Origin: Parcubacteria bacterium C7867-008
GTDB taxonomy: Bacteria > Patescibacteriota > Minisyncoccia > Phycocordibacterales > Phycocordibacteraceae
Length of the DNA: 64,000 bases
Direction of reading: 5' to 3'
NCBI GenBank assembly: GCA_001189215.1
Contig: LFCR01000004.1
Location: 313,635 to 377,634 of the forward strand
The translations under genes and the position numbers were made by a program. A model generated the notes under the pieces. The model was given only the letters and a program-made list of their open reading frames with translations, searched no databases and had not been told where the DNA came from. Below are positions 13,091 to 28,203 of this stretch, one piece after another; within the stretch, counting starts at the first letter, position 1; each line of letters begins with the position of its first letter.

Positions 13091-13095
13091 AAAAA

Positions 13096-13380: not shown

Positions 13381-13408
13381 ACCCTAATGGTAGGAGTGAT
13401 TTTTTGAC

Positions 13409-13424
13409 TATCTGTAGGAATTAC
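13409..13424 (-). promoter_or_regulatory. conserved phage motif copy 1 (GTAATTCCTACAGATA on gene strand)
   Basis: Located 28 nt upstream of the holin-like start (13380). Confidence 0.55.
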
Positions 13425-13576
13425 AAAAGAGGACCAGGGTAAAGGACATTTGCACCACTAATCAGCTTATGGATAGAATTGGTCCATGCCTTACGCGGTA
13501 TTTTTCATATCCCTGGCGATACTCGTTTTTCTCGGAGGAGCTATCTTAGGACCTATCGGAGTTGCCCTTGGCGCAG

Positions 13577-15628
13577 TTATTGCGTTCCTGTTGGCACTTG
13601 GTTCAGCTTTTCTTTTTCACTAGAAAGAATCTCGTTGACCGCTTTCGTTCCTTGGGAGTTGAGAAGCTTGACCCAGTATTTCGCTGCCTCGAGCGATCCC
13701 ACTTCCATGAGCTTGTTTGCCAGCTCTGACTTCTGGACCGCGCGTAGCGTGTTGAACCAGGTGCTGTTGAGCGCGGTGGTAAGTCCGACGGCGAGTGTGC
13801 CTCCGGCCACAGTTCCGACTGCCGAGCCAGGAGGACCGGCTGCGAAGCCTCCGGCTGTTCCGCCGACTGTCGCGCCACTGCTTCCCATAACCGCGTTGAA
13901 CCATGAGATGAGTGGTCGTGCTTCCCTGCGCTTCGCCGTTTCGTCGAGTATGTCGAAGAGCCTCGAGTTGAGGCTGTATACCTTGTTGATCTTTTCGTAC
14001 TCCGGATTGTTCGTGTTCAGAAGGTCACGGATCGCGCCGTCGATCTTTCGGACCTGCGAGAGCATGCCGTTGTCATCGACTGTCTTGAGACTCTTTCGCG
14101 TTTCGTATACCACGTTGCCATAATCCTGTGCGAGTTCGCGGAGGTCTTGCTGATACGCTTCGGTCGGCATGTTGTAGAGGTGCAACGACTGAATGTCATC
14201 CCGTAGTTTCTTAAGCTGCGTGATCTTTGATGAATTTACCGATATAGGCTTCTGCGGCATCGCTTCAGACACCACCTGCTTAAGTGTTCGGGAATACTCG
14301 TCGATGCTGTCCATCTTTCCGAGATCCAGGTTATCGATAAGGTCGCCTATGTCATCGATGCCGTTATGGCGCAGCTGGTCCACGATGTTCTTCTTCGAGT
14401 CGGCGATGATCGCTGCGGTCCCTCCCGCTTTCTTGATCTGCTTCGCCATGTCCGGGTCTGCGAGGAGCTGCCGGGCAGTTTCGAGATGGTTGTCGATGGT
14501 GCTTTGGACCGCTCCGGTCTTTTCTGAGAAGGCTCGACCGCCTTGCGAGTAGTTCGAGATTTCGTCGTCGATCTTCGTGAGGATGCCGTCCGTGCCGATA
14601 GAGCCCTGGAGCTCGCCGAGCTTCTGATACTCCTCGTTCGAGAGCCGAATTCCCTTTTCCGCTTTCTTGATGAGTTGCTTGCGCGTACCCCATGCCTTCT
14701 CGTCGAGTAGGTCCGGAATGATTTTCTCGGCCTGCTCTTTGTATTTCTCTTTTGTCGCACTCAGTCCTCGCTTATAGCTTTCCACCGCTTCTTTTTTGAG
14801 GGTTTCCGGGCTGAGGTTCTTCATGTTCGCAAAGCCGGACAGCGTACCTCCTATAACGCCTGATATCGCTCCGCTTCCGAGCGCCCTTTTCATGATGGTC
14901 GGCAGGTCTTCGTCGTCCTGCATGGCGGAGGATGCACCGTAACTTACGCCTACCGGGACCGCTTCTCGCGCTCCTTCGATAAAACCTTTGCCGAATGCCG
15001 CGACTTTTGAGGTTGCGGTCGGTACCGTCTTTTGGAACGCCGTTGATGCGCCTTCCGGAAGCGCCCGCGCGAGCACCCCGCTTGCGCCTCCTTTCACGAG
15101 CAGCTTGCCGGTCTGTGCGCCCTTCGCGGCGTTGCCGTAGGTGCCGAATGAAGCGATGTCGGTTGCGACACCCAGTCCCTCGCCGAATATCTGCTTCGCG
15201 CTTTTGTTTACACTTGCGTTCGTCTCATTGATATCGATGGGCGGCTTGCTTGTGTCTTTCAGGTGCTGCTGTAGCGCAGCATCGAGGCGGGTAGTGTCTT
15301 CGCCGCGAGCTTTCTTTTCCTTAATGGTCTTAAGGAGATTGTTTGCGATCTCCTCGCTCCTTTTCATGAGCTCTGCGTTCTGGTTGTTCGTCCACGCCGC
15401 GCTTCCTGGCACGAATCCTGGGAGCGCGTCGGCGATGCTCTTACCGAACTTCAGTTCGCTTGAGATAAGGGTCTTACCGATTGTTTTTAGTACGCCGTCT
15501 TTCTTCGGCGGCTCTGGCTGCGCGTCGGAAGTAGGAAGGTTGTTCAACCATTCCTGGATTTCTTCCTGGCTTGCGCCTTGGGACTCGAGCGCTTCTATAT
15601 TCTGTTGTATTTTTTCGTGCGTAAGCAT
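13577..15628 (-). CDS. phage virion protein (internal-virion/tape-measure-like)
   Basis: 683 aa, largely alpha-helical with a Gly-zipper C-terminus (GSSGATVGGTAGGFAAGPPGSAVGTVAGG), in the tail-gene block. Confidence 0.45.
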   Translation of the reverse strand: MLTHEKIQQNIEALESQGASQEEIQEWLNNLPTSDAQPEPPKKDGVLKTIGKTLISSELKFGKSIADALPGFVPGSAAWTNNQNAELMKRSEEIANNLLKTIKEKKARGEDTTRLDAALQQHLKDTSKPPIDINETNASVNKSAKQIFGEGLGVATDIASFGTYGNAAKGAQTGKLLVKGGASGVLARALPEGASTAFQKTVPTATSKVAAFGKGFIEGAREAVPVGVSYGASSAMQDDEDLPTIMKRALGSGAISGVIGGTLSGFANMKNLSPETLKKEAVESYKRGLSATKEKYKEQAEKIIPDLLDEKAWGTRKQLIKKAEKGIRLSNEEYQKLGELQGSIGTDGILTKIDDEISNYSQGGRAFSEKTGAVQSTIDNHLETARQLLADPDMAKQIKKAGGTAAIIADSKKNIVDQLRHNGIDDIGDLIDNLDLGKMDSIDEYSRTLKQVVSEAMPQKPISVNSSKITQLKKLRDDIQSLHLYNMPTEAYQQDLRELAQDYGNVVYETRKSLKTVDDNGMLSQVRKIDGAIRDLLNTNNPEYEKINKVYSLNSRLFDILDETAKRREARPLISWFNAVMGSSGATVGGTAGGFAAGPPGSAVGTVAGGTLAVGLTTALNSTWFNTLRAVQKSELANKLMEVGSLEAAKYWVKLLNSQGTKAVNEILSSEKEKLNQVPTGTQ

Positions 15629-15630
15629 GG

Positions 15631-17220
15631 CTAATTCGGTAGGACATAGGTCTTGCCGCTCTTACTCGTAAACGATGCCGCTTCTCCTGTTGGAGCAGCT
15701 CCCTGGCCGAGCTCGGACTTGAGCGAGGTCGCCTTGCTGTTTAGCCCCGTGTAGATGGACTCGAAGCGGGATACGTCTCGTTGACCGGCGGCCATTGAGT
15801 TGAGCTGACTTGCGAGTGATCGCGTTGCAATGTCGAGCGTCATTGCCATGACTGCCTTGTTCACATCGCCGGTGCTGCGGAGGTTTGCGATCGTGCGCGA
15901 GTAGTTCTCGATATCCGCATCGGTCAGCACACCCACTTCGCCGTACACGCCTCGTGCGAGCTTCGGTACGATTGCAGTAATGGCGGCTTTCATCTGCTGC
16001 GCCTTCGTGTCATACGGATTGTTGCTCTTGATGATTCCGACGATCGGTCCGGTATCGACGCTGTTTATGAGGCTTGTGAGCGTATCGGCTTGACTGACGA
16101 TCGTCTGGATATCGGTGATTGGCTTCAGCTCGCCCTGGGTCATTACCCTGCCGCCCCTGGAACCTCGAATAGCCTCGAGGGTGTAGTTCGGGTCGTCATA
16201 GGCCAGCGTGGTTCCTGGACCGCTTCCGCTGCCTGATCCGCTTTTCGGTGCATAGGTCTTCGCGCGTTCTGCCACAAGCTTTGCGGTGCCGGTTTCAGGA
16301 TCGTAAACGTAGCGTGCTTCCCCTTCAGTTAGGTCGAACTGATTCGCTTCCATTTTCGCTTTGTCGAGATCGACTTTATCTTTTTCTACTTCTCGATTAG
16401 CCGACTCCTGCTGCGTCTTGATATCCGCGAAGAAGCTGGAAAGCTGGTCCTTCGTAAAGCCGTACTGGTCCTGGATTTTCTCGAAGTCCTTGTCGTCGAT
16501 CTCCGTAGGGTCCACGCCGAGCGCGAGCATGTTCCGGAGGAATGAGGTGATCTGCTCTTTCTTTCGACCTCCTTGCGTCTCGAGGAACTCGAAGTATTTG
16601 TCAGCGCCTTCCTTGATTGCCACACGCTTAGCCTCGATCTCTGCCTGCGCATCTTTACTTGCAGCACCGAGTAGAGCGCCGATCTTCACGTTCGCCTCGC
16701 TGCGATACGTCTGTTCTTCCTGGTTGTTGAAGTCCTCGGTTGCACGGAACTCTGACTCGCCGGTCGCGCTTCCGATTCGACCTCCAGCGGCCGCGAGCGC
16801 GTAGCTCTGGCCTTCGCGGTTCTTAGCGGTCGTGCCGCGGAAGTTCGCTATCTGGTCTGTAACGGCTGCATTTATGACGTCGATCTGTCCCTGGATGCGG
16901 GCACGAGTGGCGTTGCGAATGGCGGCTTCGTTGACCTTGTCGGTCGCCTGCGACTTCAAGGTTTTACCTATCTTCGTTGTCGTAGGGTCTTCCACGTAAT
17001 CAGGGACCGACACTTTCGCCACCTGTGCGATGGTTTGCTTCTTGCCTGCGTTCGGATCGGCTACAGGAGCATCCGCGCCCAGACTAATGCTCTTACCCGC
17101 ATATATCTTGTTCGGGTCGCTGATCGAGGGGTTAAGCACCATCAGTTCCTGGACGCTTTTCCCTGTCTGTGAGGCGATGCTGCTTAAGGTATCGCCGTAT
17201 TTGATGGTGTACGAGCTCAT
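15631..17220 (-). CDS. LysM domain-containing phage virion protein
   Basis: N-terminal LysM (YTIKYGDTLSSIASQTGKSVQELMVLNP...IYAGKSISL) followed by a long helical region. Confidence 0.6.
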   Translation of the reverse strand: MSSYTIKYGDTLSSIASQTGKSVQELMVLNPSISDPNKIYAGKSISLGADAPVADPNAGKKQTIAQVAKVSVPDYVEDPTTTKIGKTLKSQATDKVNEAAIRNATRARIQGQIDVINAAVTDQIANFRGTTAKNREGQSYALAAAGGRIGSATGESEFRATEDFNNQEEQTYRSEANVKIGALLGAASKDAQAEIEAKRVAIKEGADKYFEFLETQGGRKKEQITSFLRNMLALGVDPTEIDDKDFEKIQDQYGFTKDQLSSFFADIKTQQESANREVEKDKVDLDKAKMEANQFDLTEGEARYVYDPETGTAKLVAERAKTYAPKSGSGSGSGPGTTLAYDDPNYTLEAIRGSRGGRVMTQGELKPITDIQTIVSQADTLTSLINSVDTGPIVGIIKSNNPYDTKAQQMKAAITAIVPKLARGVYGEVGVLTDADIENYSRTIANLRSTGDVNKAVMAMTLDIATRSLASQLNSMAAGQRDVSRFESIYTGLNSKATSLKSELGQGAAPTGEAASFTSKSGKTYVLPN

Positions 17221-17227
17221 TTCTTTT

Positions 17228-19231
17228 TTAGACTTCGATCATCGTGTAGTACCTGCCGGGGTACATGATCGCGGCGTTAGGCAGAGGATTCTTTATCTTG
17301 AGATTCATTCCGTAGTCGTCGACATCGAGCATCGGGAATAGAAGTCCGCACCCGAACGGATAGTCGTAGCTGATCGTCTTCTTGTACTCGTCGTTAAGGT
17401 ACAGCTCTACGTTTGCGGAGAGCGGCCAGACGCTGTACATCGGCATGTATCGCGGCGATCGTTCGATGCCGAAGTGGATGGCGAAGTTGCCTACCTTTCC
17501 GTAGGTATGCCCGCCCTGGATGCGGTAGCTGACGTCGTTCGAGTAGGCGTCTTCGCCGCTGGCGATAGTACGCGCGGCATAGTAGCCCCTCGGATTGAGA
17601 CGATTCCTGACGGGATCGTATTCGATGAGATTCATCTGCGTGTCGTTTGCGAACCAGTATTTGTTCGAGCCGAGCGGCACAATCCAATGCAGATAGTTGT
17701 TTTGGCTGATTCCCGAGCGGGTTCGGTATGGAACCGTGGACGTCGTGCCGGAGACGGAAATAAGGAAGAGGTTTGCGCCTCCGCTGAATTCACCGTCTTC
17801 GTCGTCAGTGATGTACATGATCCTGTCGGCGGCGACTTGGATGCCGCGATGCTCGTTGAGACCGCCCGCTACCTGGGAATTAGTTACTCTGAAGGCGACT
17901 CCGTTCGATATCGTCGCAGCCGAGACTGTGCCTGCGGCAGTCCACATGGCACCGCCGTTGGCATAGAAGATTTGGTATTTGTTTGCACCGTTTGCGACAG
18001 GTATGACCTGAGTGCAGCCGGTTAAGACGACACCCGTACCGTAACCAGGAACCGTTCCCGTGAGCGAGACGACTACGATCTGCGGGTCAGCTGCCGTTGC
18101 TGGCTTCCATGCGAGAAGCGCCTTATCGACGTCGAGCTGTATGAGCCTGCTTTGCGCAAGGTCGACCGCCGTGAAGACCACGCCGGAGTTGACGGCGCAG
18201 CTTGTGCCGGTGATCGAGATGCTGGCGGTATAGATGTCCAAGCCGGTGCCCTTGTAGGAAAGAAGCGCCTTGTCGGTATTTACCATGACCACATCGCATT
18301 CTTCGATTCCGTTCGAGAAGCCGATGGATGCAGGGACCCCGAAGGTCAGTGCTCCGTCCGATGCGACCGAGAACACTACGACTTTCGTAAGACTCGCAGC
18401 GGCATCATGGAAGAGGAGTAGGCCGCGAGTAGAATCAACCTCGATCATCTTGTAGATGTTGTTGCTGCCGTTCGCCACCAGACCGGTGAGTGTGGTCTGC
18501 TCGAATCGCTTGTGCATGACGCTGAGCAGGAGTGAGTTCAGGCGCTTCACTTTCGATCCGTAGTTATCGGGAAATACGATCTTGAGGAAGCCGTTAAGGT
18601 CCACGAATGGATTGCATGGCTTGGAAGTCCTGCCTGTGTAGTTCTCGTTGTTGAGCTTCGACGGGTTAGGCATCGCCCATCCGGAGTTGTTAGCGTCGTA
18701 GTCCCAGATGGTGCGGAGTAGGAAGTCCGGAGTGGTCGCTTCTGCGCCTGCACGGGTCGTGCCGAGCGTTACTCCGTTGAACTGGTTACCTGCACCAGCC
18801 ATCGTCTCGGTAGTGGCGATACTGTTGCCGACGACGCCCGCAGTCTTTGCTGTTACCACAGCATTGTTTCCAACGAAGGTATCTATCGTGACGTCTTCGT
18901 TCACTTTCGTGGCCAGAGCATACTGCGTGCCGGGCGTGCCGATGAGGTTTACTGCGGCGACGAGGTTCGCCTGTGTTTCTATGGCGCTGCCTCCGATCTT
19001 CACGTTGCCGTCCGAGTTAGTCAGCGTGTCTTGAAAAGTGTAGACGCGCGAGCCGATGGTGATCGTCTCGCCGTTTATCGGATTGACCGGGATCGAGAGG
19101 GTTCCCTGCGCTTTGACCGGAGGATACGAGCCAGCTGCGATACCTTCCGTCTGGAGAGGCTGGATCGACATATGCGCCCACCCGCGTTGCGGGGAATGCC
19201 TCTCGTTCTTGAATGCGTTTATATTGAACAT
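17228..19231 (-). CDS. phage tail protein (tailspike/tubular-like)
   Basis: 667 aa, beta-rich Gly/Thr/Asn-rich composition, in the structural block. Confidence 0.45.
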   Translation of the reverse strand: MFNINAFKNERHSPQRGWAHMSIQPLQTEGIAAGSYPPVKAQGTLSIPVNPINGETITIGSRVYTFQDTLTNSDGNVKIGGSAIETQANLVAAVNLIGTPGTQYALATKVNEDVTIDTFVGNNAVVTAKTAGVVGNSIATTETMAGAGNQFNGVTLGTTRAGAEATTPDFLLRTIWDYDANNSGWAMPNPSKLNNENYTGRTSKPCNPFVDLNGFLKIVFPDNYGSKVKRLNSLLLSVMHKRFEQTTLTGLVANGSNNIYKMIEVDSTRGLLLFHDAAASLTKVVVFSVASDGALTFGVPASIGFSNGIEECDVVMVNTDKALLSYKGTGLDIYTASISITGTSCAVNSGVVFTAVDLAQSRLIQLDVDKALLAWKPATAADPQIVVVSLTGTVPGYGTGVVLTGCTQVIPVANGANKYQIFYANGGAMWTAAGTVSAATISNGVAFRVTNSQVAGGLNEHRGIQVAADRIMYITDDEDGEFSGGANLFLISVSGTTSTVPYRTRSGISQNNYLHWIVPLGSNKYWFANDTQMNLIEYDPVRNRLNPRGYYAARTIASGEDAYSNDVSYRIQGGHTYGKVGNFAIHFGIERSPRYMPMYSVWPLSANVELYLNDEYKKTISYDYPFGCGLLFPMLDVDDYGMNLKIKNPLPNAAIMYPGRYYTMIEV

Positions 19232-19235
19232 AAAA

Positions 19236-20057
19236 TTATCGTTTGCTTATGGCTTGTAATGCTCCATCCGGCTTGTACTGAATGACCCAGATGTTCGTAC
19301 CGTCGAAGATCGATCGGAGCACGTCGCCAGGGTCGTAGGTCAGCACGTAGGTCTTTCCGTTATCGAGGTCATGCACGCTCCGGACCCTGCCGCGGCGGTC
19401 GTAGTTGATCTGCGGGCTATTGAGGCCGGAGATGAGGGCAGCGCCGCCGAACGCGAGCGCGAGCACCCATTGCTTCGTTGCGACGTCATTGCTGCCGACC
19501 GGGTCCGCGGCAGACACGGGCGTATTCGAGGTGAGTCCGGACTGGAAGATCGGCCGGTCCTGGAACGTCTTCACGCCAGCGATATTCTCGTTGCCGGTCT
19601 TCCCTACCTTCCCGGCGGATTGATCGTCTGCGTACTTTTTTGTGACGACTTGCTTGCCGTCGTTGAACGAGGGATCGGCGTCGTATCGGAGCGGGTTCGC
19701 GGCGTCTAGCGTATCCGCGCCGTTCAGGATGTCGACGATGACTTTTAGGTTTATGAAATCGGTCAGGTAGCACTTCGCTCCTGCCCGGTGCCCGTTGAGA
19801 TTCTGAACGCCAGCGGTCTGTACGCCCTGGCGCGAGACGCTCACGATGTTTGCTATCGCGTTGCCGGTCAGGTCGAAGAGCAGGTGTTCCTCGTCGCCAG
19901 TACCGCGATCCACGATCATGCAGTACCTTCCGTTTGGGAGCGCGACGCTGTTCTTGTCGGTGATGCTCGTCAAAGCGCCAGCAACCGCCCCGTTTCCGAG
20001 CTTCGTTGCGAGCGAAGTCTCGAAGTTTGCGACTACTTTGGTGAGTTTGCTCGACAT
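19236..20057 (-). CDS. phage tail fibre protein
   Basis: 273 aa; contains the NIAGVKTFQDRPIF motif typical of phage tail-fibre shafts. Confidence 0.5.
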   Translation of the reverse strand: MSSKLTKVVANFETSLATKLGNGAVAGALTSITDKNSVALPNGRYCMIVDRGTGDEEHLLFDLTGNAIANIVSVSRQGVQTAGVQNLNGHRAGAKCYLTDFINLKVIVDILNGADTLDAANPLRYDADPSFNDGKQVVTKKYADDQSAGKVGKTGNENIAGVKTFQDRPIFQSGLTSNTPVSAADPVGSNDVATKQWVLALAFGGAALISGLNSPQINYDRRGRVRSVHDLDNGKTYVLTYDPGDVLRSIFDGTNIWVIQYKPDGALQAISKR

Positions 20058-20085
20058 GATGTAAGTATTTGCGTAAAAAACTGCC

Positions 20086-20101
20086 TATCTGTAGGAATTA
20101 C
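20086..20101 (-). promoter_or_regulatory. conserved phage motif copy 2
   Basis: Identical 16-mer, 28 nt upstream of the tail-fibre gene start (20057). Confidence 0.55.
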
Positions 20102-21999: not shown

Positions 22000-22001
22000 G
22001 G

Positions 22002-22631
22002 CTAGATGAGTTTGAATCGTGCGTCTCGCAGCTTGAGGTTCTTTAGGTAGCGCTGGTACTGGACCGAGTTCTCCTGCATGCTGCTACGTGCCTTTTCTGA
22101 CTTCTTGATGATTTCCTCGTCGATGAGCATGGCGAAGACGATCATCGGGTGGTATTCGGCAGGAAGCTTTGGTGATGTCAGCGGGGTGATATCGTCAGGG
22201 CTCGTCTTGTAGTCGTATTCGTAGGCTGCGCCCGTGCCAGGACTCTGAGCGAAGTTGATCTTGCCGTCCGAAGGATCGAACCAGCAGACATTGCTGTAGT
22301 TGTTCGCATTCCGCTGCCCCATCGGGACGATTAGATGCGGCGCTTTGCTGCCGCCCACATAGACGACCTTCGTTATGGGCTCGCCGATCGTCGGATCGTC
22401 GCTGAAGTTCTCCATGAATTCATCGAAGTCGGTCGGAGGCGTGATCTTCCCGTCGCTCTCTACGCTTCCTGCTTTCTTGCGTCGCAAAAACTCCCACGGC
22501 TGCTCCATGTAGACGAGTCGCAGCTTGTCGTTTGCGAGGATTATTTCTTCGTCGCTCGAGAGGTCCGTCGTATCGTCGGTGTAGAGCTCGAAGCGGTCGA
22601 TGATTTGTTGTCCGGTGAGTGGTGTCGCCAT
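22002..22631 (-). CDS. phage tail/adaptor protein (tubular protein A-like size)
   Basis: 209 aa, immediately downstream of the capsid gene. Confidence 0.35.
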   Translation of the reverse strand: MATPLTGQQIIDRFELYTDDTTDLSSDEEIILANDKLRLVYMEQPWEFLRRKKAGSVESDGKITPPTDFDEFMENFSDDPTIGEPITKVVYVGGSKAPHLIVPMGQRNANNYSNVCWFDPSDGKINFAQSPGTGAAYEYDYKTSPDDITPLTSPKLPAEYHPMIVFAMLIDEEIIKKSEKARSSMQENSVQYQRYLKNLKLRDARFKLI

Positions 22632-22644
22632 AATTTCTTTTTTA

Positions 22645-22685
22645 CCCAGTGCTGGATGCAGGCTATGTCTGCATCCAGCACTGGG
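22645..22685 (-). other. perfect 17-bp-stem hairpin downstream of capsid gene
   Basis: CCCAGTGCTGGATGCAG-gctatgt-CTGCATCCAGCACTGGG, with no mismatches. Confidence 0.6.
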
Positions 22686-22715
22686 CCCCAGCCGAAGCTG
22701 AGGTCAGTGCAGTCT

Positions 22716-23918
22716 TTACGACTGGAGGAGAACGTCGAGGAACTGCGGCTTCCCGTCCGAGAACGTGAAGATTCCGTAGATCGCATCGGCGCGGATGATC
22801 TTCGCCCGCTGGTACGGGTCGTCGACCATTTCCATCTCCGCGAGGTCCTGGATGACCACGTCGATCGCACCCTTCTTTCCGTAGTACCCATGGATGAGGT
22901 TCTTCGTGAGGGTGTAGGTCGCGTTCCCGCCGAACACGAGGCGGCCGGAGCCGGTACCCGTGATCGTGATCGTATCGGCAGCGTCGCTGTCGACAGCCGC
23001 GAGCTGAAGGTCGACCCAGTTGGACTGGTCATAGCTCGGATCGACGTCGGTCCATGCGATGTACTTCACGCCTGCAGTACCAGAGGTCTGGTGGATTGCA
23101 TCGATGAGGTTATCGCGCGTCGCGTCTACGCCTGCTTCGATGAGCACGTTGCCCGGATTCGAGCCGATCGAGGTCACGAAGGTGTAGACGAAGCCGTTGA
23201 TCGAGAACGTCTGCCCGTTTGAGGGGTTTGACGCCATCGTGATCACCGCCTCAGCGAGAAGGTTCTCGGAGAGATAGAGCTCTGCGCCTCCTACCGGACC
23301 GGCATAGCCGTTCTTGAAGGCTGCTGCAGCTAGGTCGATATTCTTCGACATGACGTACTGCTCGATGATCGAGCCGCCGTAGCTGTCGAGCACAAGGGCC
23401 AGGCTTGTGAGGTCCTGGTTCGCCTTGCGAAGCTTCGCGCGTCCCTGCGAGAGGAGCTGCGGAAGGTTCGTGGTCGACAGCGTGACAGCGACGCCGCTCG
23501 AGGTCATCGTGGTAAGGTCGCCGGTGTCGAACGTCTGAAGGGCGTTCTTGACCTGCGCGAAGACGTCCGCGTCGATGTAACGTGAGAGCTTCTTTGCGAC
23601 TTCGGCACCGATCGTCTCCGCAGGATTCAGCGGGCCAGCCTGAATCATCTCCTTCTTGGAGATGCGGAAGTCGGCACCCTTGTTCTTGTTCACGAGGAGC
23701 GTCTCGCCAGCGTCATTGAGCTGGTCAATGGTGCGGTTGACGCCGATCGTGATGTTACGCACACGAATTGGTGCGAGAGAATACTTCACACGCTTTACCG
23801 ATGCTCCGTACTCGAGTTTCTTCTCGAGGCGCGTGTTGGCGATCTCCATCGCCACGAGCACCTTGTCGAACACCGCCTGGTAGGCGTTGTCGAACTGTTC
23901 CTTGAAAGTTACTAACAT
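22716..23918 (-). CDS. putative major capsid protein
   Basis: 400 aa; it follows a scaffold-like gene and precedes the strong hairpin. Confidence 0.5.
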   Translation of the reverse strand: MLVTFKEQFDNAYQAVFDKVLVAMEIANTRLEKKLEYGASVKRVKYSLAPIRVRNITIGVNRTIDQLNDAGETLLVNKNKGADFRISKKEMIQAGPLNPAETIGAEVAKKLSRYIDADVFAQVKNALQTFDTGDLTTMTSSGVAVTLSTTNLPQLLSQGRAKLRKANQDLTSLALVLDSYGGSIIEQYVMSKNIDLAAAAFKNGYAGPVGGAELYLSENLLAEAVITMASNPSNGQTFSINGFVYTFVTSIGSNPGNVLIEAGVDATRDNLIDAIHQTSGTAGVKYIAWTDVDPSYDQSNWVDLQLAAVDSDAADTITITGTGSGRLVFGGNATYTLTKNLIHGYYGKKGAIDVVIQDLAEMEMVDDPYQRAKIIRADAIYGIFTFSDGKPQFLDVLLQS

Positions 23919-23962
23919 GAGAGGGATAAATTAGAGTTGCTAATTGCCCTCCCAGAAATGGA

Positions 23963-24880
23963 CTAACTAGAGCGATGACGTGAGCGCTGCGTCAGTCGGT
24001 CGATAAGACCATCCTGGTACTTATCGAACTCCTGTCCGCCACGTTCGCGGGATTCAGCGATGCGCTTATGATCGTCCTCGCTTGGCTTCTTGTAATCCGG
24101 CTCCTTCGGATGGTTGCCGCCTTGTGAGCTGTAGCCTTCCATGCCGGGTTCCGGCTTTACTGCGTCGCCATAGAGTTCCTCGAGGATGTCTTCCATCGTG
24201 CGGCTGAGGTTTTCCTCGCTCGACAGGATGTATTTCCTCACGGCTTCCCTTTTGGCTACTTTTCCAAGCTCCGGATTCTCTGCGACCACGCGGTCGAATT
24301 CTTTCACTATCGCCGCGGTGATCTGCGCATTGTTGATCTCCTTTGATTGCGCTTCCGTCTTCTTCTTGATGTCCTTGATATCTGAGAGGTACTCGTCCTC
24401 GAACTGCTTCTTGGACTTGGTGAGGAGTGCGTTCGCCAGCTTTCGGGTGAACTCCGGGTCGGCACTTCCTTCGATGAGCGATTCGATTTCGTCTTTAGCG
24501 TCATCGCCGCGTGAACCTCCCTTTTTGATTTGCTCCTGCAAATCTTTTATGGTGGGAATGACCTCGTCGCGGATCATTTTTTTCATCTCGCGGTTCTCTT
24601 TCTTGAGATCAACGATGAGGCTGTCGCGCTCGTCGCTGTCCTTAGGCTTCTGGTCCTTGGAATCGCCTGACGCTCCGGCAACTTCCGCGATTGACTTGTT
24701 TGAGGGAGCAGCGTCATTGCCACCCTGATCGGCTGGCTTCTGGTCCCCTGCAGCTTTTCCTGACTTGTCGTCAGCGGGTGCTGCTTCCTGGTTTTGTGGT
24801 TTTGGCATAACGTTTTTATGTCGATGGTTTCGCCCCACCGATGTCCTGATGTGTACGCCGGACATTCGCGCGATTAACAA
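23963..24880 (-). CDS. putative scaffolding protein
   Basis: 305 aa, highly charged and helical, low-complexity N-terminus; it lies between the portal-side genes and the capsid gene. Confidence 0.45.
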   Translation of the reverse strand: MLIARMSGVHIRTSVGRNHRHKNVMPKPQNQEAAPADDKSGKAAGDQKPADQGGNDAAPSNKSIAEVAGASGDSKDQKPKDSDERDSLIVDLKKENREMKKMIRDEVIPTIKDLQEQIKKGGSRGDDAKDEIESLIEGSADPEFTRKLANALLTKSKKQFEDEYLSDIKDIKKKTEAQSKEINNAQITAAIVKEFDRVVAENPELGKVAKREAVRKYILSSEENLSRTMEDILEELYGDAVKPEPGMEGYSSQGGNHPKEPDYKKPSEDDHKRIAESRERGGQEFDKYQDGLIDRLTQRSRHRSS

Positions 24881-24937
24881 CCTTTTTAATAAGAGGTTGG
24901 CCCCTCTTACCGATAAGTGTGTTCGGGAAAAGATGTT

Positions 24938-24953
24938 TATCTGTAGGAATTAC
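24938..24953 (-). promoter_or_regulatory. conserved phage motif copy 3
   Basis: Identical 16-mer, 57 nt upstream of the scaffold gene start (24880). Confidence 0.55.
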
Positions 24954-25016
24954 TTTTTGCATCAAAAAACCACCGGCGTGCCGATGGTTTTTCTTTATCT
25001 TTTCTCCAGCTTTTCT

Positions 25017-25406
25017 TTATCTCGCCAGGGTGCTCGATGTGCTCGGCCGCTTACGCGAGAGCTCGTCGAGCAAGGTGTCTAGGTCATCCTGGGCTCCGGT
25101 AAAGCGTCGCATCATCTGGACGGACGCCTCGAAGCGAGCGACGACGGAGATGAGTCTGCCCAGCTCTGGGCTCTCATGCAGGACTGCGAAGAGTTCGTTC
25201 ATTGCCTTGCGGGATTCGGTCTGAAGTCTTTCTATAGTGTCCTTGCCCGCGGGAGTGCGCGTCCATGAGACGAGATCGCTCGCCACGTCGATGGCTTGGC
25301 TAATCTCCTCGACTTCAGCGGCGTCTTCCTTGGGTTCTTCCGGGACCGGCTGCGATTCGTCATGCGGTCCGGTAAGGATTTCTTCTTTTGGAGCTTCGTC
25401 GGTCAT
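25017..25406 (-). CDS. hypothetical acidic protein
   Basis: 129-aa intact ORF in the morphogenesis block. Confidence 0.3.
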   Translation of the reverse strand: MTDEAPKEEILTGPHDESQPVPEEPKEDAAEVEEISQAIDVASDLVSWTRTPAGKDTIERLQTESRKAMNELFAVLHESPELGRLISVVARFEASVQMMRRFTGAQDDLDTLLDELSRKRPSTSSTLAR

Positions 25407-25777
25407 AGCTTTAATTGCTTACGGACCTCCTTGTCTTCCGACATAAGCGTGCGAAGAATGCTCTTTGCCTGCTTTTCTTGGTCCTTGAACTGCTTTGCCT
25501 TGTTCTCCTGGATGGCTAGCATCGTCAGCGCATACCGCTTCTTCGGCGTGAGCTTTTTCATGTACGCCACGAGATCAGGATTTGCGCGACGAATGTTCTC
25601 TGCCATTGAATCCTGCAGCTTGGCGTTCGCTTCCATCTCGCGGGCCTGTTTGCGGACCTGCTCGACGTTGCGATTCATCTCGCGCAGAGAAAACTCCGCG
25701 ACTTGGCCGTGCTTCGTGATGCGATGGTCGCCCTTATCCTTCGCCTTCTTCTTGATCTGGTAGGAGAAGCGAAGCAT
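25403..25777 (-). CDS. hypothetical basic protein
   Basis: 124-aa Lys-rich ORF with 4-nt overlaps to its neighbours. Confidence 0.3.
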   Translation of the reverse strand: MLRFSYQIKKKAKDKGDHRITKHGQVAEFSLREMNRNVEQVRKQAREMEANAKLQDSMAENIRRANPDLVAYMKKLTPKKRYALTMLAIQENKAKQFKDQEKQAKSILRTLMSEDKEVRKQLKL

Positions 25778-26118
25778 TAGAATATTGCCGACCCGGCGTC
25801 GTTAGCTTCTTCCTGCTGTTCTCCCTCACCAGTTGCGGTCCCGGCCGTCGACTCTGCCTGGGCTTCAGCGGTACCTTCCTGATTCTCGACAGGAGCGGTA
25901 TCGCCTACTGGTGCAGCCGGTGCTTCAGGTTCGGTTGGAGCCGGTGCTGGCGCGACCTCGGCGTTACCGACGCCATTGTTGCGCTCGTAGTCATCGCGGG
26001 CATCGCGCTCGGTATCGAATAGTGGGCTGCGGAAGATGACCGAGCCCTCAGCGTCGTAGCGCTTCCAGAGCCACTTGCCGTTATCTTCTACGAACTTCAC
26101 GTTGTTTGATTCAGACAT
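25777..26118 (-). CDS. YegP/DUF1508-like domain protein
   Basis: The N-terminal VKFVEDNGKWLWKRYDAEGSVIFRSPLFDTERDARDDYER resembles the YegP (UPF0339) repeat; the C-terminus is acidic and low-complexity. Confidence 0.45.
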   Translation of the reverse strand: MSESNNVKFVEDNGKWLWKRYDAEGSVIFRSPLFDTERDARDDYERNNGVGNAEVAPAPAPTEPEAPAAPVGDTAPVENQEGTAEAQAESTAGTATGEGEQQEEANDAGSAIF

Positions 26119-26134
26119 AAATGTAATTAGTTAG

Positions 26135-28150
26135 TTAACTTGTTAATGCTGCGGTTGCCGCAGCCTCCGCGCCCGGATCGCCGAGCGGGACCGCATCAGC
26201 TGCAGCCAGCTCAGGGTTCTCGAGGCCGGTTCCATCGACCATTCCGGCTCCACCGCTGATCAAGCCTGCCTTTGCGGATTCTGCTACCACCGAGCGTGCG
26301 GCGTTTCGCTCTACGATCGGCGTTATTTGGTCGATGTAGGCGAATACTTCCGCATGCTGCTCGGAGGTGAGCTCGTGATCGTATTTGTCGGATAGGTCAT
26401 GGAGACGCTGAAGGAATGCTGTGTTCGCGTCTTTGTAGAGAGGAGGTGTGTGCCCGCCTATGATGAGCTGGAATGCTTCGTCCGCTTGCGCGACTATCTC
26501 GATTGCGTTGTAGTCGTTCGTGTCGAGTAGGCGCTTGATCGTGTCGTCATCTACGCCTGCGATTGTCGCCTGAGTTTCAAAGAGCACCTTCTGATTGATG
26601 GTTTGGTCGCCCTTGTAGGAACCCAGGAATGTAAGTTTATTCTTGCTGTCAGCGAGATTGCTCTGCGCTTCGGCGAGGCTCGATTCGACGAGGATATCGT
26701 AGTCCTCTTGGAACGGCTTCAGGTCGCGTGAGCTGACCATCTCGATCTCTAGACCCATAGGCCCGAGAATCTGTACCGCCATCTTCTTCTTAAGGTCCTG
26801 CATCACGCCCTCCTTGTGGAGGACTGCGAAGCGGTAGTAACCCTCGGCGTAGCTCTTATTCAAGAGGCCGAAGCGATCGCCTGCTTGCATGAGGTTTCCC
26901 TCGTAGATGCCGAGCGTTTCTTCGTCGCTCGTTCCCTTCACGTCTGATGTCACGCCGCTTTCTGTTTCTGCGATCTGTTCGAGCTTGTCGTAGACCATGA
27001 ATGGTCCTTCGATTGGTGGCGTCTGCCGTGTCTGCAGCACTCTGTTCACGTCCACGTTGCCTTCGATCTCTATGTAGCCGTCCTTTCGGTAGCGAACCTG
27101 CGCGAGGTTGCGGACGTAGTCGACATTCACGGCGGTCTGCGGTCGGTTGATCTGCTCGGAGTTGTCGAGCGATTGGTTAATGCTCTTTTCCTGCGCCATG
27201 AAGAGACCGCGGACGAAGTCGCAGTAGGCAGGCGTCCAGAACTCGCGTGGGTCCGGGAACGCTGCCCAGGTCCAGATTGGGTACTTACCGCTCTTACGGA
27301 TTTCGGTCCAGGGTTCGCAGCGGATGCAGTCGCCTGATGGCGTGAGCACGAGATAGTATCGGTCGTCGTTCTCGTCTGTGGTGATCCACGTATAGAAAAT
27401 AAATTGATTCTCGTTCTTCACTCCCTCTCGCGGAGTGCCGCTTGGCTTGCGATTCTCCTTGTCGGTATCTTGGCTTGTCTTTGTCTTTGCGTTCGTACCT
27501 CCATCAAGTAGTTCATCGACAATCTTCTTGTAATAAATGCCGTCTTTGATGCCCTTGGTTAGCTGCGCTCTTGTGAGCTTCGTATTCCACCATCCCAGGT
27601 ATCCCGCCTTCTCGACGCCGTTGCCGTCTTCTTCTTCGGTGCTGAGACCACCCACGTCCGGGTCTATGAGAAAGTCTTTCGGATCAATCAGGTTGAGGAT
27701 GCTTCGGTATTGGCCCTTGTCGTTCCGGGTCAGGTAGAGATAAATTGCGCGTCCATAAATCGCTGCATCGCGTTTGCCCATAAGGTCCTTGAAGTTCCAG
27801 CGTCCTGTCTTCGAGTCCTTGTCGCGTATGGCGTTCATCAGCTTCGCTTTCTTAAGGTCGGCTGATTCCCCTTTGACGTACTTGAATGTTAGCGGGCTGT
27901 CGATTTTCGAGAGAATGGTGTGGACGAAGCCATGCATCTTATAGAGCGGGACCTGGGCGCGAGTGTCGGCCTGCTGTGTTGAGCCTCCGTAAGGTGAGAC
28001 GACGGACGGACTGTTCTTGTCCGGGTTCATCATGTCCTCGTTCTTATTCCACGAAGACATTCGCGCTTTCTTGTAGCGATAGGAGTAGTCGATCTCTTTA
28101 AGCGCCTGCTTGGCGAGCGCGTCGCGTTTCTTGTAGTGGGCTAACGACAT
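26135..28150 (-). CDS. putative portal protein
   Basis: 671 aa, positioned between the terminase large subunit and the scaffold/capsid genes. Confidence 0.45.
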   Translation of the reverse strand: MSLAHYKKRDALAKQALKEIDYSYRYKKARMSSWNKNEDMMNPDKNSPSVVSPYGGSTQQADTRAQVPLYKMHGFVHTILSKIDSPLTFKYVKGESADLKKAKLMNAIRDKDSKTGRWNFKDLMGKRDAAIYGRAIYLYLTRNDKGQYRSILNLIDPKDFLIDPDVGGLSTEEEDGNGVEKAGYLGWWNTKLTRAQLTKGIKDGIYYKKIVDELLDGGTNAKTKTSQDTDKENRKPSGTPREGVKNENQFIFYTWITTDENDDRYYLVLTPSGDCIRCEPWTEIRKSGKYPIWTWAAFPDPREFWTPAYCDFVRGLFMAQEKSINQSLDNSEQINRPQTAVNVDYVRNLAQVRYRKDGYIEIEGNVDVNRVLQTRQTPPIEGPFMVYDKLEQIAETESGVTSDVKGTSDEETLGIYEGNLMQAGDRFGLLNKSYAEGYYRFAVLHKEGVMQDLKKKMAVQILGPMGLEIEMVSSRDLKPFQEDYDILVESSLAEAQSNLADSKNKLTFLGSYKGDQTINQKVLFETQATIAGVDDDTIKRLLDTNDYNAIEIVAQADEAFQLIIGGHTPPLYKDANTAFLQRLHDLSDKYDHELTSEQHAEVFAYIDQITPIVERNAARSVVAESAKAGLISGGAGMVDGTGLENPELAAADAVPLGDPGAEAAATAALTS

Positions 28151-28182
28151 GATGGACTGAGTATGTGAGCGAAAGTTGTTCT

Positions 28183-28197
28183 TTCTGTAGGAATTAC
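28183..28197 (-). promoter_or_regulatory. conserved phage motif copy 4 (one substitution)
   Basis: TTCTGTAGGAATTAC, 32 nt upstream of the portal gene start (28150). Confidence 0.5.
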
Positions 28198-28203
28198 CCC
28201 TAC

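What the first reader, a model, noticed from the sequence alone, without database searches (positions are those of the whole stretch)
13409..28197. Conserved 16-nt motif GTAATTCCTACAGA(T/A)A 28-57 nt upstream of four phage late operons
The plus-strand sequence TATCTGTAGGAATTAC occurs exactly at 13409, 20086 and 24938, and with one substitution at 28183. All four lie in the only intergenic gaps of the structural and lysis region, on the gene (minus) strand, and in copies 1 and 2 exactly 28 nt before the start codon. A 16/16 match four times in 24 kb is not chance. Candidate roles are a phage-specific promoter (T7-like single-subunit RNAP promoter, or a late sigma/activator site) or a 5'-UTR RNA element. 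No phage RNAP is visible in the window, so the recognising factor is unknown.
Basis: seen in the sequence. Interest (0 to 1): 0.7.

Follow-up and report, generated by a model that had tools for sequence, protein, structure and literature searches.

The report
Activator-dependent late promoters of a prophage
The repeated 16-base motif is most likely the upstream half of four late-gene promoters in a small prophage of an ultra-small (CPR/Patescibacteria) bacterium. It is probably the docking site of a previously undescribed 129-residue phage DNA-binding protein, whose recognition helix changes in step with the motif across related phages.

Summary
GTAATTCCTACAGATA (gene strand) occurs three times exactly and once with one mismatch, and nowhere else in 64 kb at up to 3 mismatches (0 of 100 shuffles reach 4).

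The element is a ~23.5 kb podovirus-like prophage (about 12.0-35.5 kb) beside GAPDH in a Patescibacteria genome. It shows no recognisable RNA polymerase or sigma gene.

About 30 related phage genomes carry the same architecture at the same four positions:
- a near-invariant GTAAT-like pentamer;
- 8 phage-specific bases;
- an A/T tract;
- a -10-like hexamer nAtACT exactly 27 nt after the pentamer;
- a start codon 6-9 nt later in three of the four window copies. In copies 1 and 2 the predicted transcription start is the A of the ATG, which explains the "exactly 28 nt".

There is no -35 hexamer. Copy 3 follows an intrinsic terminator.

A 129-aa early protein (32098-32487, minus strand) tracks the motif type. 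It has an N-terminal helix-turn-helix and a C-terminal Cys/His (zinc-ribbon-like) motif, and matches no Pfam, PHROG, NCBIfam or PDB entry. Its Mantel r with motif similarity is 0.75, against 0.49 or less for 14 other genes, and the signal is strongest in the recognition helix.

Best reading: these are activator-dependent late promoters served by host RNA polymerase. The T7-like and RNA-element readings are not supported. No transcription start or binding data exist.

The parts
28182..28197 (-). Late promoter P4 (portal operon), upstream element: GTAATTCCTACAGAAA. The 13-nt core GTAATTCCTACAG spans predicted -44 to -32.
   Evidence: The same element sits at the syntenic site in L003, C30, C32, L040, L096 and others.
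28160..28165 (-). P4 -10-like hexamer CATACT, 16 nt after the motif. The predicted start is A at 28153, 3 nt before the portal ATG at 28150.
   Evidence: A34 and T38 are conserved in 96% of 52 promoters.
24938..24953 (-). Late promoter P3 (scaffold/capsid/adaptor/633-aa operon), upstream element GTAATTCCTACAGATA.
24916..24921 (-). P3 -10-like hexamer CACACT.
24964..24993 (-). Intrinsic terminator (13-bp stem including the flanking A/U pairs, then a U6 run) ending the portal operon, 10 nt upstream of the P3 motif.
   Evidence: dG -16.6 kcal/mol, z -5.3. Relatives keep the stem through compensatory changes, read by eye.
24892..24907 (-). Conserved stem-loop AGAGGGGCCAACCTCT at the predicted 5' end of the P3 transcript. 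It starts 8-9 nt after the -10 hexamer and is probably a 5'-terminal stabilising hairpin.
   Evidence: near-invariant in almost all relatives even where the flanks differ; diverged in L015. (dG -11.4 kcal/mol, z only -1.9).
20086..20101 (-). Late promoter P2 (tail operon: 273, 667, 529 and 683 aa), upstream element GTAATTCCTACAGATA. It overlaps the TAA stop of the 633-aa gene.
20064..20069 (-). P2 -10-like hexamer AATACT. The predicted start is the A of the ATG at 20057, giving a leaderless mRNA.
13409..13424 (-). Late promoter P1 (lysis operon: 94-aa holin-like protein, amidase), upstream element GTAATTCCTACAGATA.
13387..13392 (-). P1 -10-like hexamer TACCAT. The predicted start is the A of the ATG at 13380, giving a leaderless mRNA.
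32098..32487 (-). Gene for the candidate specificity factor (129 aa). It has an invariant N-terminal arm (NxNNPRxKL), a three-helix HTH (residues 13-50), two long helices, and a C-terminal C102/H104/C111/C114 motif on a beta hairpin. It lies in the early/middle operon, four genes upstream of TerL (135-aa gene, ParB-methyltransferase and TerS lie between).
   Evidence: for the protein; for co-variation; for the prediction test and replication.
12000..35550 (-). Approximate extent of the ~23.5 kb podovirus-like prophage that holds the regulon. It runs from the GAPDH terminator (35540-35570) to just past the DUF5049 gene. Exact ends are not determined.
   Evidence: GrpE and Hsp70 on the left and GAPDH on the right are host genes.

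Best explanation
The four motif copies are the upstream elements of four late promoters of a ~23.5 kb prophage in a Patescibacteria (CPR) bacterium.

Each promoter has four parts:
- A 13-nt site, GTAATTCCTACAG, at predicted -44 to -32, followed by 3 A/T-rich bases.
- An A/T tract.
- A sigma-70-type -10 hexamer (consensus nAtACT) exactly 16 nt after the 16-mer.
- A transcription start about 7 nt further on. This coincides with the A of the ATG in copies 1 and 2 (leaderless mRNAs), lies 3 nt before the ATG in copy 4, and sits at the foot of a conserved 5' hairpin in copy 3.

No usable -35 hexamer is present. The 13-nt site is proposed to be bound by the phage's own 129-aa HTH/zinc-ribbon-like protein (32098-32487, minus strand), which is made from the early/middle operon. 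This protein would then recruit or stabilise host RNA polymerase holoenzyme in place of the -35 contact, as a class-II-type or 'sigma-appropriation-like' activator. That would switch on the portal, capsid, tail and lysis operons together.

Within the site, the invariant N-terminal arm and conserved parts of the protein would read the near-invariant AAT-C positions. The variable recognition helix would read the phage-specific bases.

Shown here: the motif statistics, the conserved promoter geometry, the absence of a -35 hexamer, the terminator, and the protein-motif co-variation.

Inferred, not shown: the transcription start sites, physical binding, the direction of regulation (activation), and which polymerase surface is contacted.
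For: 1. Non-random, promoter-like placement. Four copies only, all on the gene strand and upstream of operon-first genes. Copy 3 directly follows a strong intrinsic terminator, so transcription must restart there.

2. Conserved architecture. 59 instances in 26 related genomes sit at the same four syntenic sites. A -10-like hexamer lies exactly 27 nt after the GTAAT-like pentamer (29 nt in two divergent types). A34 and T38 are conserved in 96% of instances, and an A at position 45 in 83%.

3. Phage-specific specificity segment. Positions 1-12 are 84-100% identical among the promoters of one genome (69% at position 13). Positions 6, 8, 9, 10, 12 and 13 are only 21-41% identical between motif types. 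At least 12 motif types were seen.

4. No canonical promoter at the sites. The sigma-70 scan finds none there, although a perfect TTGACA-16-TATAAT exists at 12071-12044 in the same window. A distant relative (L019) has TGGTATAATTA three times, one copy just upstream of the portal gene and the other two at comparable spacings.

5. Co-variation with one protein.
- Identity to the window's protein is 72-80% in phages with the same motif and 33-55% in the others.
- Same-type pairs average 82% identity; different-type pairs average 48%.
- After dereplication the AUC is 0.99 with the largest well-sampled effect size of 19 genes.
- Mantel r between motif similarity and protein identity is 0.75 (n=30). 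The best of 14 other genes reaches 0.49, and the two flanking genes give 0.06 and 0.28.
- Within the protein the signal peaks in helices 2-3 of the HTH (r=0.66).

6. Prediction tests.
- Two homologues at 65-68% identity that keep the RFHAGxNGW helix were predicted to keep the type-A site. Their contigs carry GTAATTCCTACAA and GTAATTCCTGCAG before the portal gene.
- An independent metagenome set repeats the helix-class to motif pairing and adds new pairs.

8. Regulon confined to the phage. There is no copy of the motif in the roughly 40 kb of host DNA in the window.
Against: - There is no experimental 5'-end, expression or binding evidence. The -10 hexamer and the start site are inferred from conservation only.
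- Co-variation is a correlation across related genomes that are not independent. Structural genes also show a background correlation with motif type (r 0.4-0.5).
- A site overlapping the -35 region could equally serve a repressor.
- The site has no dyad symmetry, which is unusual for bacterial activators. Monomeric GcrA and T4 MotA are precedents.
- The C-terminal half of the model is of low confidence (pLDDT 59-73). Zinc binding and a polymerase contact are guesses.
- The promoter preferences of Patescibacteria sigma-A are unknown, so 'no -35' is judged against the E. coli-type consensus.
- Three large virion proteins (633, 667 and 683 aa) have no detectable homology to anything. A cryptic polymerase cannot be formally excluded.
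Confidence: 0.72

Rival explanations
1. The motif is an operator for a repressor. The 129-aa HTH protein, or another phage or host factor, binds over the -35 region and keeps the late operons silent. The promoters are otherwise recognised directly by the host holoenzyme.
For: The site overlaps the -35 region. A prophage needs its late genes off, and no CI-like repressor was found inside the element. Protein-site co-variation is equally expected for a repressor-operator pair.
Against: - The sites lack any TTGACA-like hexamer at 16-18 nt from the -10, so they should be weak without help.
- The spacing between site and -10 is rigid at 27 nt in all four promoters of all phages (29 nt in two types). 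This suggests a stereospecific contact with polymerase rather than simple occlusion.
- The gene sits co-directionally inside the lytic early/middle operon just upstream of the packaging genes, the usual place for late activators.
- The site is asymmetric.
Confidence: 0.12
2. The motif is the promoter of a phage-encoded RNA polymerase (T7-like single-subunit or other) or of a phage sigma factor that the searches failed to recognise. It might be hidden among the unannotated 633-, 667- or 683-aa proteins or the small early proteins.
For: - A 13-16 nt identical, phage-specific sequence is typical of single-subunit polymerase promoters.
- The motif loosely resembles the T7 promoter layout, with TAAT at the 5' end and ATA before a G (my own comparison from memory).
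- Several proteins have no detectable homologues.
Against: - The whole element is only ~23.5 kb, and every ORF of 600 aa or more lies in the virion or tail module.
- No Pfam, PHROG, NCBIfam or PDB polymerase or sigma hit was found.
- A conserved sigma-70-type -10 hexamer at fixed distance downstream, and start codons 6-9 nt after it, are unexplained by a T7-type promoter. That type starts transcription at the 3' edge of the conserved block.
- The motif co-varies with the small HTH protein, not with the large proteins.
- The 129-aa protein is too small, and lacks a sigma region 2, to be a stand-alone sigma.
Confidence: 0.05
3. The motif is a generic repeat with a non-transcriptional role: a packaging (pac) site, a parS site for the ParB-like domain, a methyltransferase target, a recombination site, or an RNA element acting in read-through transcripts.
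For: - The element encodes a ParB-domain/N6-methyltransferase fusion (30357-31685) and a small-terminase candidate.
- Copies 2 and 4 would be transcribed by read-through from the upstream genes.
Against: - The ParB-methyltransferase (Mantel r 0.11), TerS (0.24) and TerL (0.09) do not track motif type.
- The sites are always upstream of operon-first genes at a fixed distance from a -10 hexamer.
- The motif is not palindromic as parS sites are.
- Rfam finds nothing.
- The motif lies upstream of the predicted start of the transcript it precedes.
Confidence: 0.04
4. The promoter reading is right but the specificity factor is a different early protein, such as the 145-aa product of 35043-35480. Alternatively, the 129-aa protein works only together with the conserved 135-aa neighbour (31687-32094) as a co-activator pair.
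For: - The 145-aa protein is 80-84% identical in two type-A phages and in one phage with a related motif, and 40-60% identical elsewhere.
- The 135-aa gene follows the activator gene after a 3-nt gap and is conserved in all relatives.
Against: - Mantel r is 0.26 for the 145-aa protein against 0.65 for the HTH protein on the same 16 genomes. Pairs of different motif type reach 85% identity in the 145-aa protein.
- The 145-aa protein has no recognisable DNA-binding motif.
- The 135-aa protein does not co-vary (r 0.06). It could only be a constant partner, not the specificity determinant.
Confidence: 0.07

Closest known systems
Phage Mu Mor and C activators (middle and late promoters)
   Same: These are small (about 130-140 aa) phage-encoded HTH proteins. 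They bind just upstream of and overlapping the -35 region of several promoters that lack a -35 hexamer, and they activate host sigma-70 holoenzyme. This rests on my own knowledge of the Mu literature.
   Different: Mor and C are dimers on imperfect dyad-symmetric sites, whereas the site here is asymmetric. There is no sequence relationship (no Pfam Mor hit at E up to 10). The protein here has a C-terminal Cys/His motif.
T4 MotA/AsiA sigma appropriation (middle promoters)
   Same: An asymmetric, roughly 9-13 bp phage-specific box replaces the -35 element upstream of a good sigma-70 -10. It is read by a monomeric phage protein. This rests on my own knowledge.
   Different: The MotA box is centred near -30, while the site here is centred near -38. 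No AsiA-like protein was identified, and the role of the conserved 135-aa neighbour is untested. There is no homology.
Caulobacter GcrA (and phage GcrA-like proteins)
   Same: - GcrA is a monomeric, non-canonical activator that contacts sigma-70 and an asymmetric cis element (PMC9976885, PMC5887438).
- As with GcrA/CcrM, an N6-adenine methyltransferase gene lies close by, one gene downstream.
   Different: There is no sequence-level match to the GcrA family. The C-terminal half is a Cys/His motif rather than GcrA's sigma-interacting domain. The match is a generic three-helix HTH, also shared with Tc3, Hin and resolvase. No evidence shows that the site is methylated.
P2 Ogr / P4 Delta and the RinA/Ltr late activators of Gram-positive phages
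   Same: These are small phage proteins (Ogr binds zinc) encoded upstream of the packaging genes. Ogr turns on several late operons through a common upstream site; RinA/Ltr proteins turn on the single late (packaging and lysis) operon. This rests on my own knowledge.
   Different: Ogr sites are dyads (TGT-N12-ACA) near -55. RinA-type proteins are sigma-region-4-like. No homology was detected to any of them. Here terS and terL lie upstream of the first activated promoter.
T7-group single-subunit RNA polymerase promoters
   Same: These are long, phage-specific, near-identical sequences before each late operon.
   Different: There is no polymerase gene in the element. A conserved sigma-70-type -10 lies at fixed distance downstream of the motif. 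Specificity tracks a 129-aa HTH protein.

Membership tests
Sigma-70-type bacterial promoter (-35/-10) | A -10 hexamer resembling TATAAT (A at position 2, T at position 6), 5-9 nt upstream of the transcription start | tested here: met
   nAtACT lies at a fixed 16 nt after the motif, with A34 and T38 in 96% of 52 promoters. The start site itself is not mapped.
Sigma-70-type bacterial promoter (-35/-10) | A -35 hexamer resembling TTGACA, 16-18 nt upstream of the -10 | tested here: not met
   The consensus scan finds no promoter at any of the four sites. The bases at that position are ACAGAw (read).
Activator-dependent (class-II-like) phage late promoter | A common cis element abutting or overlapping the -35 region, at fixed phase, in all co-regulated promoters | tested here: met
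   The 13-nt core is at predicted -44 to -32 in 4 of 4 window promoters and in 59 instances in relatives.
Activator-dependent (class-II-like) phage late promoter | A phage-encoded DNA-binding protein that recognises the element | tested here: inconclusive
   Co-variation (Mantel r 0.75; prediction test passed) and an HTH fold point to the 129-aa protein. Binding was not and cannot be tested here.
Activator-dependent (class-II-like) phage late promoter | Transcription depends on the protein (activation rather than repression) | not testable with these tools
   This needs reporter assays or in vitro transcription.
T7-like single-subunit RNAP promoter | A cognate single-subunit RNA polymerase gene in the same genome | tested here: not met
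   No polymerase match was found in Pfam, PHROGs or PDB for any protein of the ~23.5 kb element. Three large proteins remain unannotated.
T7-like single-subunit RNAP promoter | Transcription starts at the 3' edge of the conserved block (-17 to +6) | tested here: inconclusive
   Conservation of a separate -10 hexamer 16 nt downstream, with start codons 6-9 nt after it, argues against this. No start-site data exist.
GcrA family | Sequence membership (Pfam GcrA) and a C-terminal sigma-70-interacting domain | tested here: not met
   [not shown]
Mor/C family | A Pfam Mor domain and a dyad-symmetric binding site | tested here: not met
   There is no Pfam Mor hit. The 16-mer has no internal inverted repeat (read from the sequence).
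Cis-regulatory RNA element (5' UTR) | The element lies within the transcript and has a conserved structure or a known family | tested here: not met
   The motif is upstream of the predicted -10. Rfam gives no match in the window. A separate conserved 5' hairpin exists only in the copy-3 leader.

The most novel reading that the evidence does not exclude
The 129-aa protein founds a previously undescribed family of monomeric phage transcription activators, combining a Hin/GcrA-like HTH with an N-terminal arm and a zinc-ribbon-like tail. This family substitutes for the -35 contact at leaderless late promoters in phages of Patescibacteria. It has a readable recognition code: helix ...RFHAGxNGW pairs with CCTACAG, ...(I/L)FH(I/V)R(Y/F)NGW pairs with GCAC, and so on. 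That code has diversified into at least a dozen mutually orthogonal protein-promoter pairs on an otherwise conserved phage backbone. A further possibility is that recognition is coupled to the neighbouring N6-methyltransferase, as in GcrA/CcrM.
Probability: 0.5. Interest if true: 0.68.

Novelty: new variant of a known kind. Interest (0 to 1): 0.58.

Why it matters
Almost nothing is known about how transcription is organised in Patescibacteria (CPR) or their phages, because almost none of these organisms is cultured.

If the model is right, this locus provides three things:
- A concrete promoter architecture: a -10 hexamer, a short discriminator and leaderless starts.
- A defined four-operon late regulon.
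- A cognate regulator that can be tested in vitro or in E. coli.

The natural series of at least 12 matched protein-site variants on a nearly constant backbone is a ready-made dataset for working out how a minimal HTH reads DNA. It is also a possible source of orthogonal activator-promoter pairs.

Conceptually it is one more instance of a familiar phage strategy, a late activator replacing the -35 contact. It is not a new principle.

Tried and rejected
- Known phage DNA. A megablast of 16 kb against 50,697 phage records found no match.
- Giant 5746-aa ORF as a virion RNA polymerase. It is an LVIVD-repeat, Ig-like, S74-chaperone surface protein of the host.
- tRNA or tmRNA attachment site. None is present.
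- Flanking genes as part of the phage. The Hsp70/AAA/S49 genes at 2-10 kb have no homologues in related phage contigs, and GrpE and Hsp70 are host genes.
- Other candidate specificity factors. The 145-aa (35043), SymE/AbrB-like (34695), 98-aa (34460), 135-aa (31687), TerS and ParB-methyltransferase proteins all associate with motif type much more weakly than the HTH protein.
- Wrong-frame ORFs. ORFs 32141-32518 and 32091-32453, which I first used, are off-frame artefacts of the real gene 32098-32487.
- Family assignment of the 129-aa protein. Pfam, PHROGs, NCBIfam, a PDB sequence profile and the BFVD fold library gave nothing significant. AFDB50 was unavailable.
- Attachment-site repeats. No exact repeat of 9 nt or more links the two prophage junctions.
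- The 7-mer TCCTACA in the loop of a hairpin at 12001-12029 as a decoy of the motif. A type-E relative has the same hairpin with TCCTAAA, so it does not track motif type.
- A possible fifth site (TTACTTCCTACAC, about 12288-12300). It has the wrong spacing, no -10 hexamer, and is not conserved in C30.
- A terminator upstream of copy 1. The fold is not significant.
- More distant relatives (portal 35-55% identical). They lack a detectable homologue of the protein within the regions fetched.
- Literature. A search for the motif string found only chance hits in insect barcode papers. CPR prophage papers do not mention this motif or regulator in their titles, abstracts or the passages read.

Full report
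**Observation**

The plus-strand 16-mer TATCTGTAGGAATTAC (GTAATTCCTACAGATA on the gene strand) is exact at 13409, 20086 and 24938. It has one mismatch at 28182-28197. No other site in the 64 kb window matches at up to three mismatches on either strand. Chance expectation is 0.35, and 0 of 100 dinucleotide-preserving shuffles reach four matches. The 11-mer core is likewise exact only at these four places.

All long ORFs in the region lie on the minus strand. Each copy lies upstream of a gene that begins a block:
- portal (ATG at 28150, 31 nt after the motif);
- a 305-aa scaffold-like gene followed by the 400-aa capsid gene (57 nt to a TTG);
- a 273-aa tail gene (28 nt);
- a 94-aa holin-like gene followed by an amidase (28 nt).

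Gaps of 84 and 44 nt around the capsid gene have no motif.

**What the element is**

Protein-family scans identify these genes:
- TerL (28204-29988) and a DUF5681 small-terminase candidate;
- an SU10-type portal and adaptor;
- a transglycosylase-bearing internal protein and an amidase;
- a ParB-domain/N6-methyltransferase fusion;
- a RepO-like protein and a Sak4/AAA_24 ATPase.

GAPDH (35589-36632), a giant LVIVD-repeat surface protein, GatB, Obg and SecA on one side are host genes. So are GrpE and Hsp70 on the other side.

The element is therefore a podovirus-like prophage of about 23.5 kb (roughly 12.0-35.5 kb). Related IMG/VR contigs of 22-23 kb agree with that size.

Portal homologues come from metagenome-assembled genomes labelled Patescibacteria, Saccharibacteria or Paceibacteria. 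In at least five of them (L008, L010, L012, L016, L092) the element again lies next to GAPDH.

No recognisable RNA polymerase, sigma factor or integrase is present.

**The motif is one version of a conserved promoter architecture**

I fetched relatives through three genes:
- the portal (genome contigs);
- a tail protein and the methyltransferase (viral contigs);
- later, the regulator itself (metagenome contigs).

The exact motif recurs only in a subset of relatives. Every relative nevertheless carries its own repeated element at the same four syntenic positions. The common plan is:
- a GTAAT-like pentamer;
- about 8 phage-specific bases;
- an A/T tract;
- a hexamer nAtACT (CATACT, CACACT, GATACT, TACCAT, TACAAT and so on) beginning exactly 27 nt after the pentamer (29 nt in two divergent types);
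- the start codon 6-12 nt later for the portal, tail and holin promoters.

Over 52 aligned promoters:
- positions 3, 4, 5 and 7 (A, A, T, C) are nearly universal;
- positions 1-12 are 84-100% identical among promoters of the same genome (69% at position 13);
- positions 6, 8, 9, 10, 12 and 13 are only 21-41% identical between motif types;
- the second and last bases of the hexamer (A34, T38) are conserved in 96%;
- an A at position 45, seven bases after the hexamer, is present in 83%.

These are the signatures of a sigma-70-type -10 element and a purine start.

In window copies 1 and 2, position 45 is the A of the ATG. In copy 4 the predicted start is 3 nt before the ATG.

In copy 3 the predicted start falls at the foot of a stem-loop, AGAGGGGCCAACCTCT. 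This stem-loop is nearly invariant in almost all relatives even where the flanks differ.

Copy 3 is preceded by an intrinsic terminator (dG -16.6 kcal/mol, z -5.3, then U6). Its stem is maintained in relatives by compensatory changes, read by eye.

None of the four sites has a TTGACA-like hexamer at 16-18 nt from the -10. Yet a perfect TTGACA-16-TATAAT exists elsewhere in the window (12071-12044). A distant relative (L019) carries TGGTATAATTA three times, one copy just upstream of the portal gene. Canonical promoters therefore appear to be used in these hosts, and the late promoters here look incomplete on their own.

**The candidate recognising factor**

Closely related phages (portal 76-90% identical) use different specificity segments. 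The reader of the site must therefore be encoded in a variable cassette.

Among the small early genes, the ORF 32098-32487 stood out. It is the real frame; two overlapping ORFs in the mechanical list are off-frame artefacts. Its product is 72-80% identical in phages with the TCCTACAG motif and 33-55% identical in all others.

An all-against-all comparison gives a mean of 82% for same-type pairs and 48% for different-type pairs. The highest different-type values fall between types whose motifs are themselves similar.

After dereplication, its within-minus-between difference (24 points, AUC 0.99) is the largest among the well-sampled genes of the 19 tested. The 145-aa protein shows a nominally larger gap (31 points) but from a single within-type pair.

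Across 30 genomes, the Mantel correlation between motif similarity and protein identity is 0.75 for this protein. Comparison values:
- 0.49 or less for the 14 other genes;
- 0.06 and 0.28 for its two flanking genes;
- 0.26 for the other early candidate, the 145-aa protein.

Within the protein, the correlation is strongest for residues 28-56 (r 0.66).

Two predictions were then tested.

First, homologues at 65-68% identity that retain the helix ...RFHAGxNGW should retain the type-A site. Their contigs show GTAATTCCTACAA and GTAATTCCTGCAG before the portal gene.

Second, an independent set from metagenome contigs reproduces the pairing of helix class with motif. It also adds new pairs, for example helix RFHARTNGW with GCAATACCCACAA.

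The four sites are spread over 15 kb of a backbone that does not otherwise partition so sharply. Simple linkage is therefore an unlikely explanation.

**What the protein looks like**

It matches nothing in Pfam, PHROGs, NCBIfam or PDB sequences.

The family is rare. A profile search of 1.84 billion representative proteins finds 66 clusters at E up to 1e-3 and 19 at E up to 1e-10. The weaker hits include tandem-HTH proteins that Pfam assigns to the HTH_23, HTH_7, HTH_38 and Sigma70_r4 families.

The AlphaFold model (mean pLDDT 76; above 90 for residues 11-50) shows:
- a three-helix HTH (residues 13-24, 30-36 and 41-50);
- two long helices;
- a beta hairpin carrying the invariant C102, H104, C111 and C114.

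The invariant N-terminal arm (NxNNPRxKL) precedes helix 1. Its H/Y9 variation tends to accompany changes at motif positions 1-2.

My inference is that the conserved arm and scaffold read the conserved AAT-C positions, and the variable recognition helix reads the variable bases. The conserved C-terminal half would contact a conserved partner, most plausibly RNA polymerase.

**Mechanism proposed**

The early/middle operon produces the protein. That operon runs from the early genes through the HTH protein, the 135-aa protein, the methyltransferase, TerS and TerL.

The protein binds the 13-nt site centred near -38 of four promoters that have a -10 but no -35. It recruits or stabilises the host holoenzyme. 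This turns on the portal operon (which ends at the terminator), the capsid operon (whose 5' hairpin probably adds stability), the tail operon and the lysis operon.

The geometry and the co-variation are shown. Binding, activation and start sites are inferred.

**Rivals**

- Repressor-operator pair. This fits the co-variation. It fits less well the missing -35, the rigid phasing and the gene's position.
- Cryptic phage polymerase or sigma. This is disfavoured by the conserved -10 at fixed distance, the small genome, and co-variation with the HTH protein rather than with large proteins. Three virion proteins remain unannotated.
- pac, parS, methylation-target or RNA-element roles. These are disfavoured by the lack of co-variation with TerS, TerL and ParB-methyltransferase, by the asymmetry of the site, and by the absence of an Rfam hit.

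**Comparison with known systems**

In function this is closest to three systems:
- Mu Mor/C: small HTH activators overlapping the -35 of -35-less promoters.
- T4 MotA: a monomer on an asymmetric box replacing the -35.
- GcrA: a monomeric, sigma-bound activator. It gives the best fold match, and an N6-methyltransferase gene lies close by (PMC5887438, PMC9976885).

It is also related in logic to P2 Ogr and the RinA/Ltr late activators.

It is not a member of any of these families by sequence. Its site is neither a dyad nor at their positions.

I found no paper describing this motif or protein.

**Verdict**

Its promoter/activator-site reading is supported and made more specific. The polymerase and RNA-element readings are not supported.

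The finding is a new variant of a known kind of system. Its added interest is that it lies in CPR phages and offers a natural series of matched protein-site specificities.

Noticed in passing
window 38624-55864 (-): A single 5746-aa ORF with about 14 LVIVD repeats, a beta-propeller, an S74 intramolecular-chaperone domain, a bacterial Ig-like domain and an HTH_17 match at its extreme N-terminus. It is a giant host surface protein. The HTH_17 at the start, also seen in the neighbouring 333-aa ORF 56620-57621, is odd.
   Followed up: partly
window 24892-24907 (-), and the same position in L001-L016, C30-C33 and others: The stem-loop AGAGGGGCCAACCTCT, 8-9 nt after the -10 of the capsid-operon promoter, is almost invariant in relatives whose flanks differ (diverged in L015). 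It is probably a 5'-terminal stabilising hairpin or a translational element for the most abundant virion proteins.
   Followed up: partly
window 22632-22715 (-): A very strong double hairpin lies directly after the capsid gene and has no U-tract (dG -47.7 kcal/mol, z -7.0). It may be a 3' stabiliser or attenuator separating capsid from adaptor and tail expression.
   Followed up: no
window 12001-12071 (-); same arrangement in C33 (L043+L033) around 24964-25050: A perfect TTGACA-16-TATAAT promoter is followed about 8 nt after the predicted start by a 12-bp hairpin and a U-rich tail. It lies at the prophage/host junction and is conserved in a relative of a different motif type. It may be a small RNA or the attachment region. 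There is no Rfam match.
   Followed up: partly
window 11103-11315 (+) and 11350-11988 (+): An XRE-family HTH protein (70 aa) and a probable NYN/LabA-like protein lie on the opposite strand just outside the lysis end of the prophage. The NYN gene is also present next to the C33 relative. The pair could be a repressor or toxin-antitoxin-like pair, or host genes.
   Followed up: partly
window about 12000-35550; L008, L010, L012, L016, L092: The prophage has no recognisable integrase or excisionase, and no direct repeats of 9 nt or more at its junctions. Yet it sits immediately downstream of the GAPDH gene and terminator in several different genomes. How it integrates is unexplained.
   Followed up: partly
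window 30357-31685 (-) and 31687-32094 (-): The regulator gene is followed by a conserved 135-aa protein of unknown fold and then a ParB-domain/N6-adenine methyltransferase fusion. The regulator's HTH best matches the GcrA DNA-binding domain, which reads methylated DNA. A methylation-dependent or co-activator-dependent mechanism is therefore conceivable but untested.
   Followed up: no
L012 5505-6011: In this genome the regulator homologue appears frameshifted after about residue 125 of the ORF as called, about residue 95 in window numbering. The C-terminal Cys/His motif is replaced by unrelated sequence, although the cognate sites (TGAATACCTACCGA) are intact. This may be a decaying prophage or an assembly error.
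   Followed up: no
L019 9932, 12712, 17416: A distant relative (portal 40% identical, a Saccharibacteria-labelled genome) has TGGTATAATTA three times: one copy about 60 nt upstream of the portal gene and two more 2.8 and 7.5 kb downstream. These are extended -10 promoters. No homologue of the regulator was found in the region fetched.
   Followed up: partly
window 12000-35500 (-), gene starts: Hardly any phage gene has a Shine-Dalgarno-like sequence; upstream regions are A/T-rich instead. Together with the predicted leaderless late mRNAs, this suggests SD-independent initiation in this phage-host pair.
   Followed up: no
window 34695-34991 (-): The small early protein reads like a SymE/AbrB-type swapped-hairpin DNA-binding domain (...PALILEGHWLTQRYRLSIGDVIDIDY...). 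This is my reading of the sequence only. No library match was found, and it does not track motif type.
   Followed up: partly
window 12288-12300 (-): TTACTTCCTACAC matches the motif core at 10 of 13 positions. It lies 23 nt before the ATG of the DUF5049 gene (12058-12264). It has the wrong spacing, no -10 hexamer, and is not conserved in C30, so it is probably chance.
   Followed up: partly
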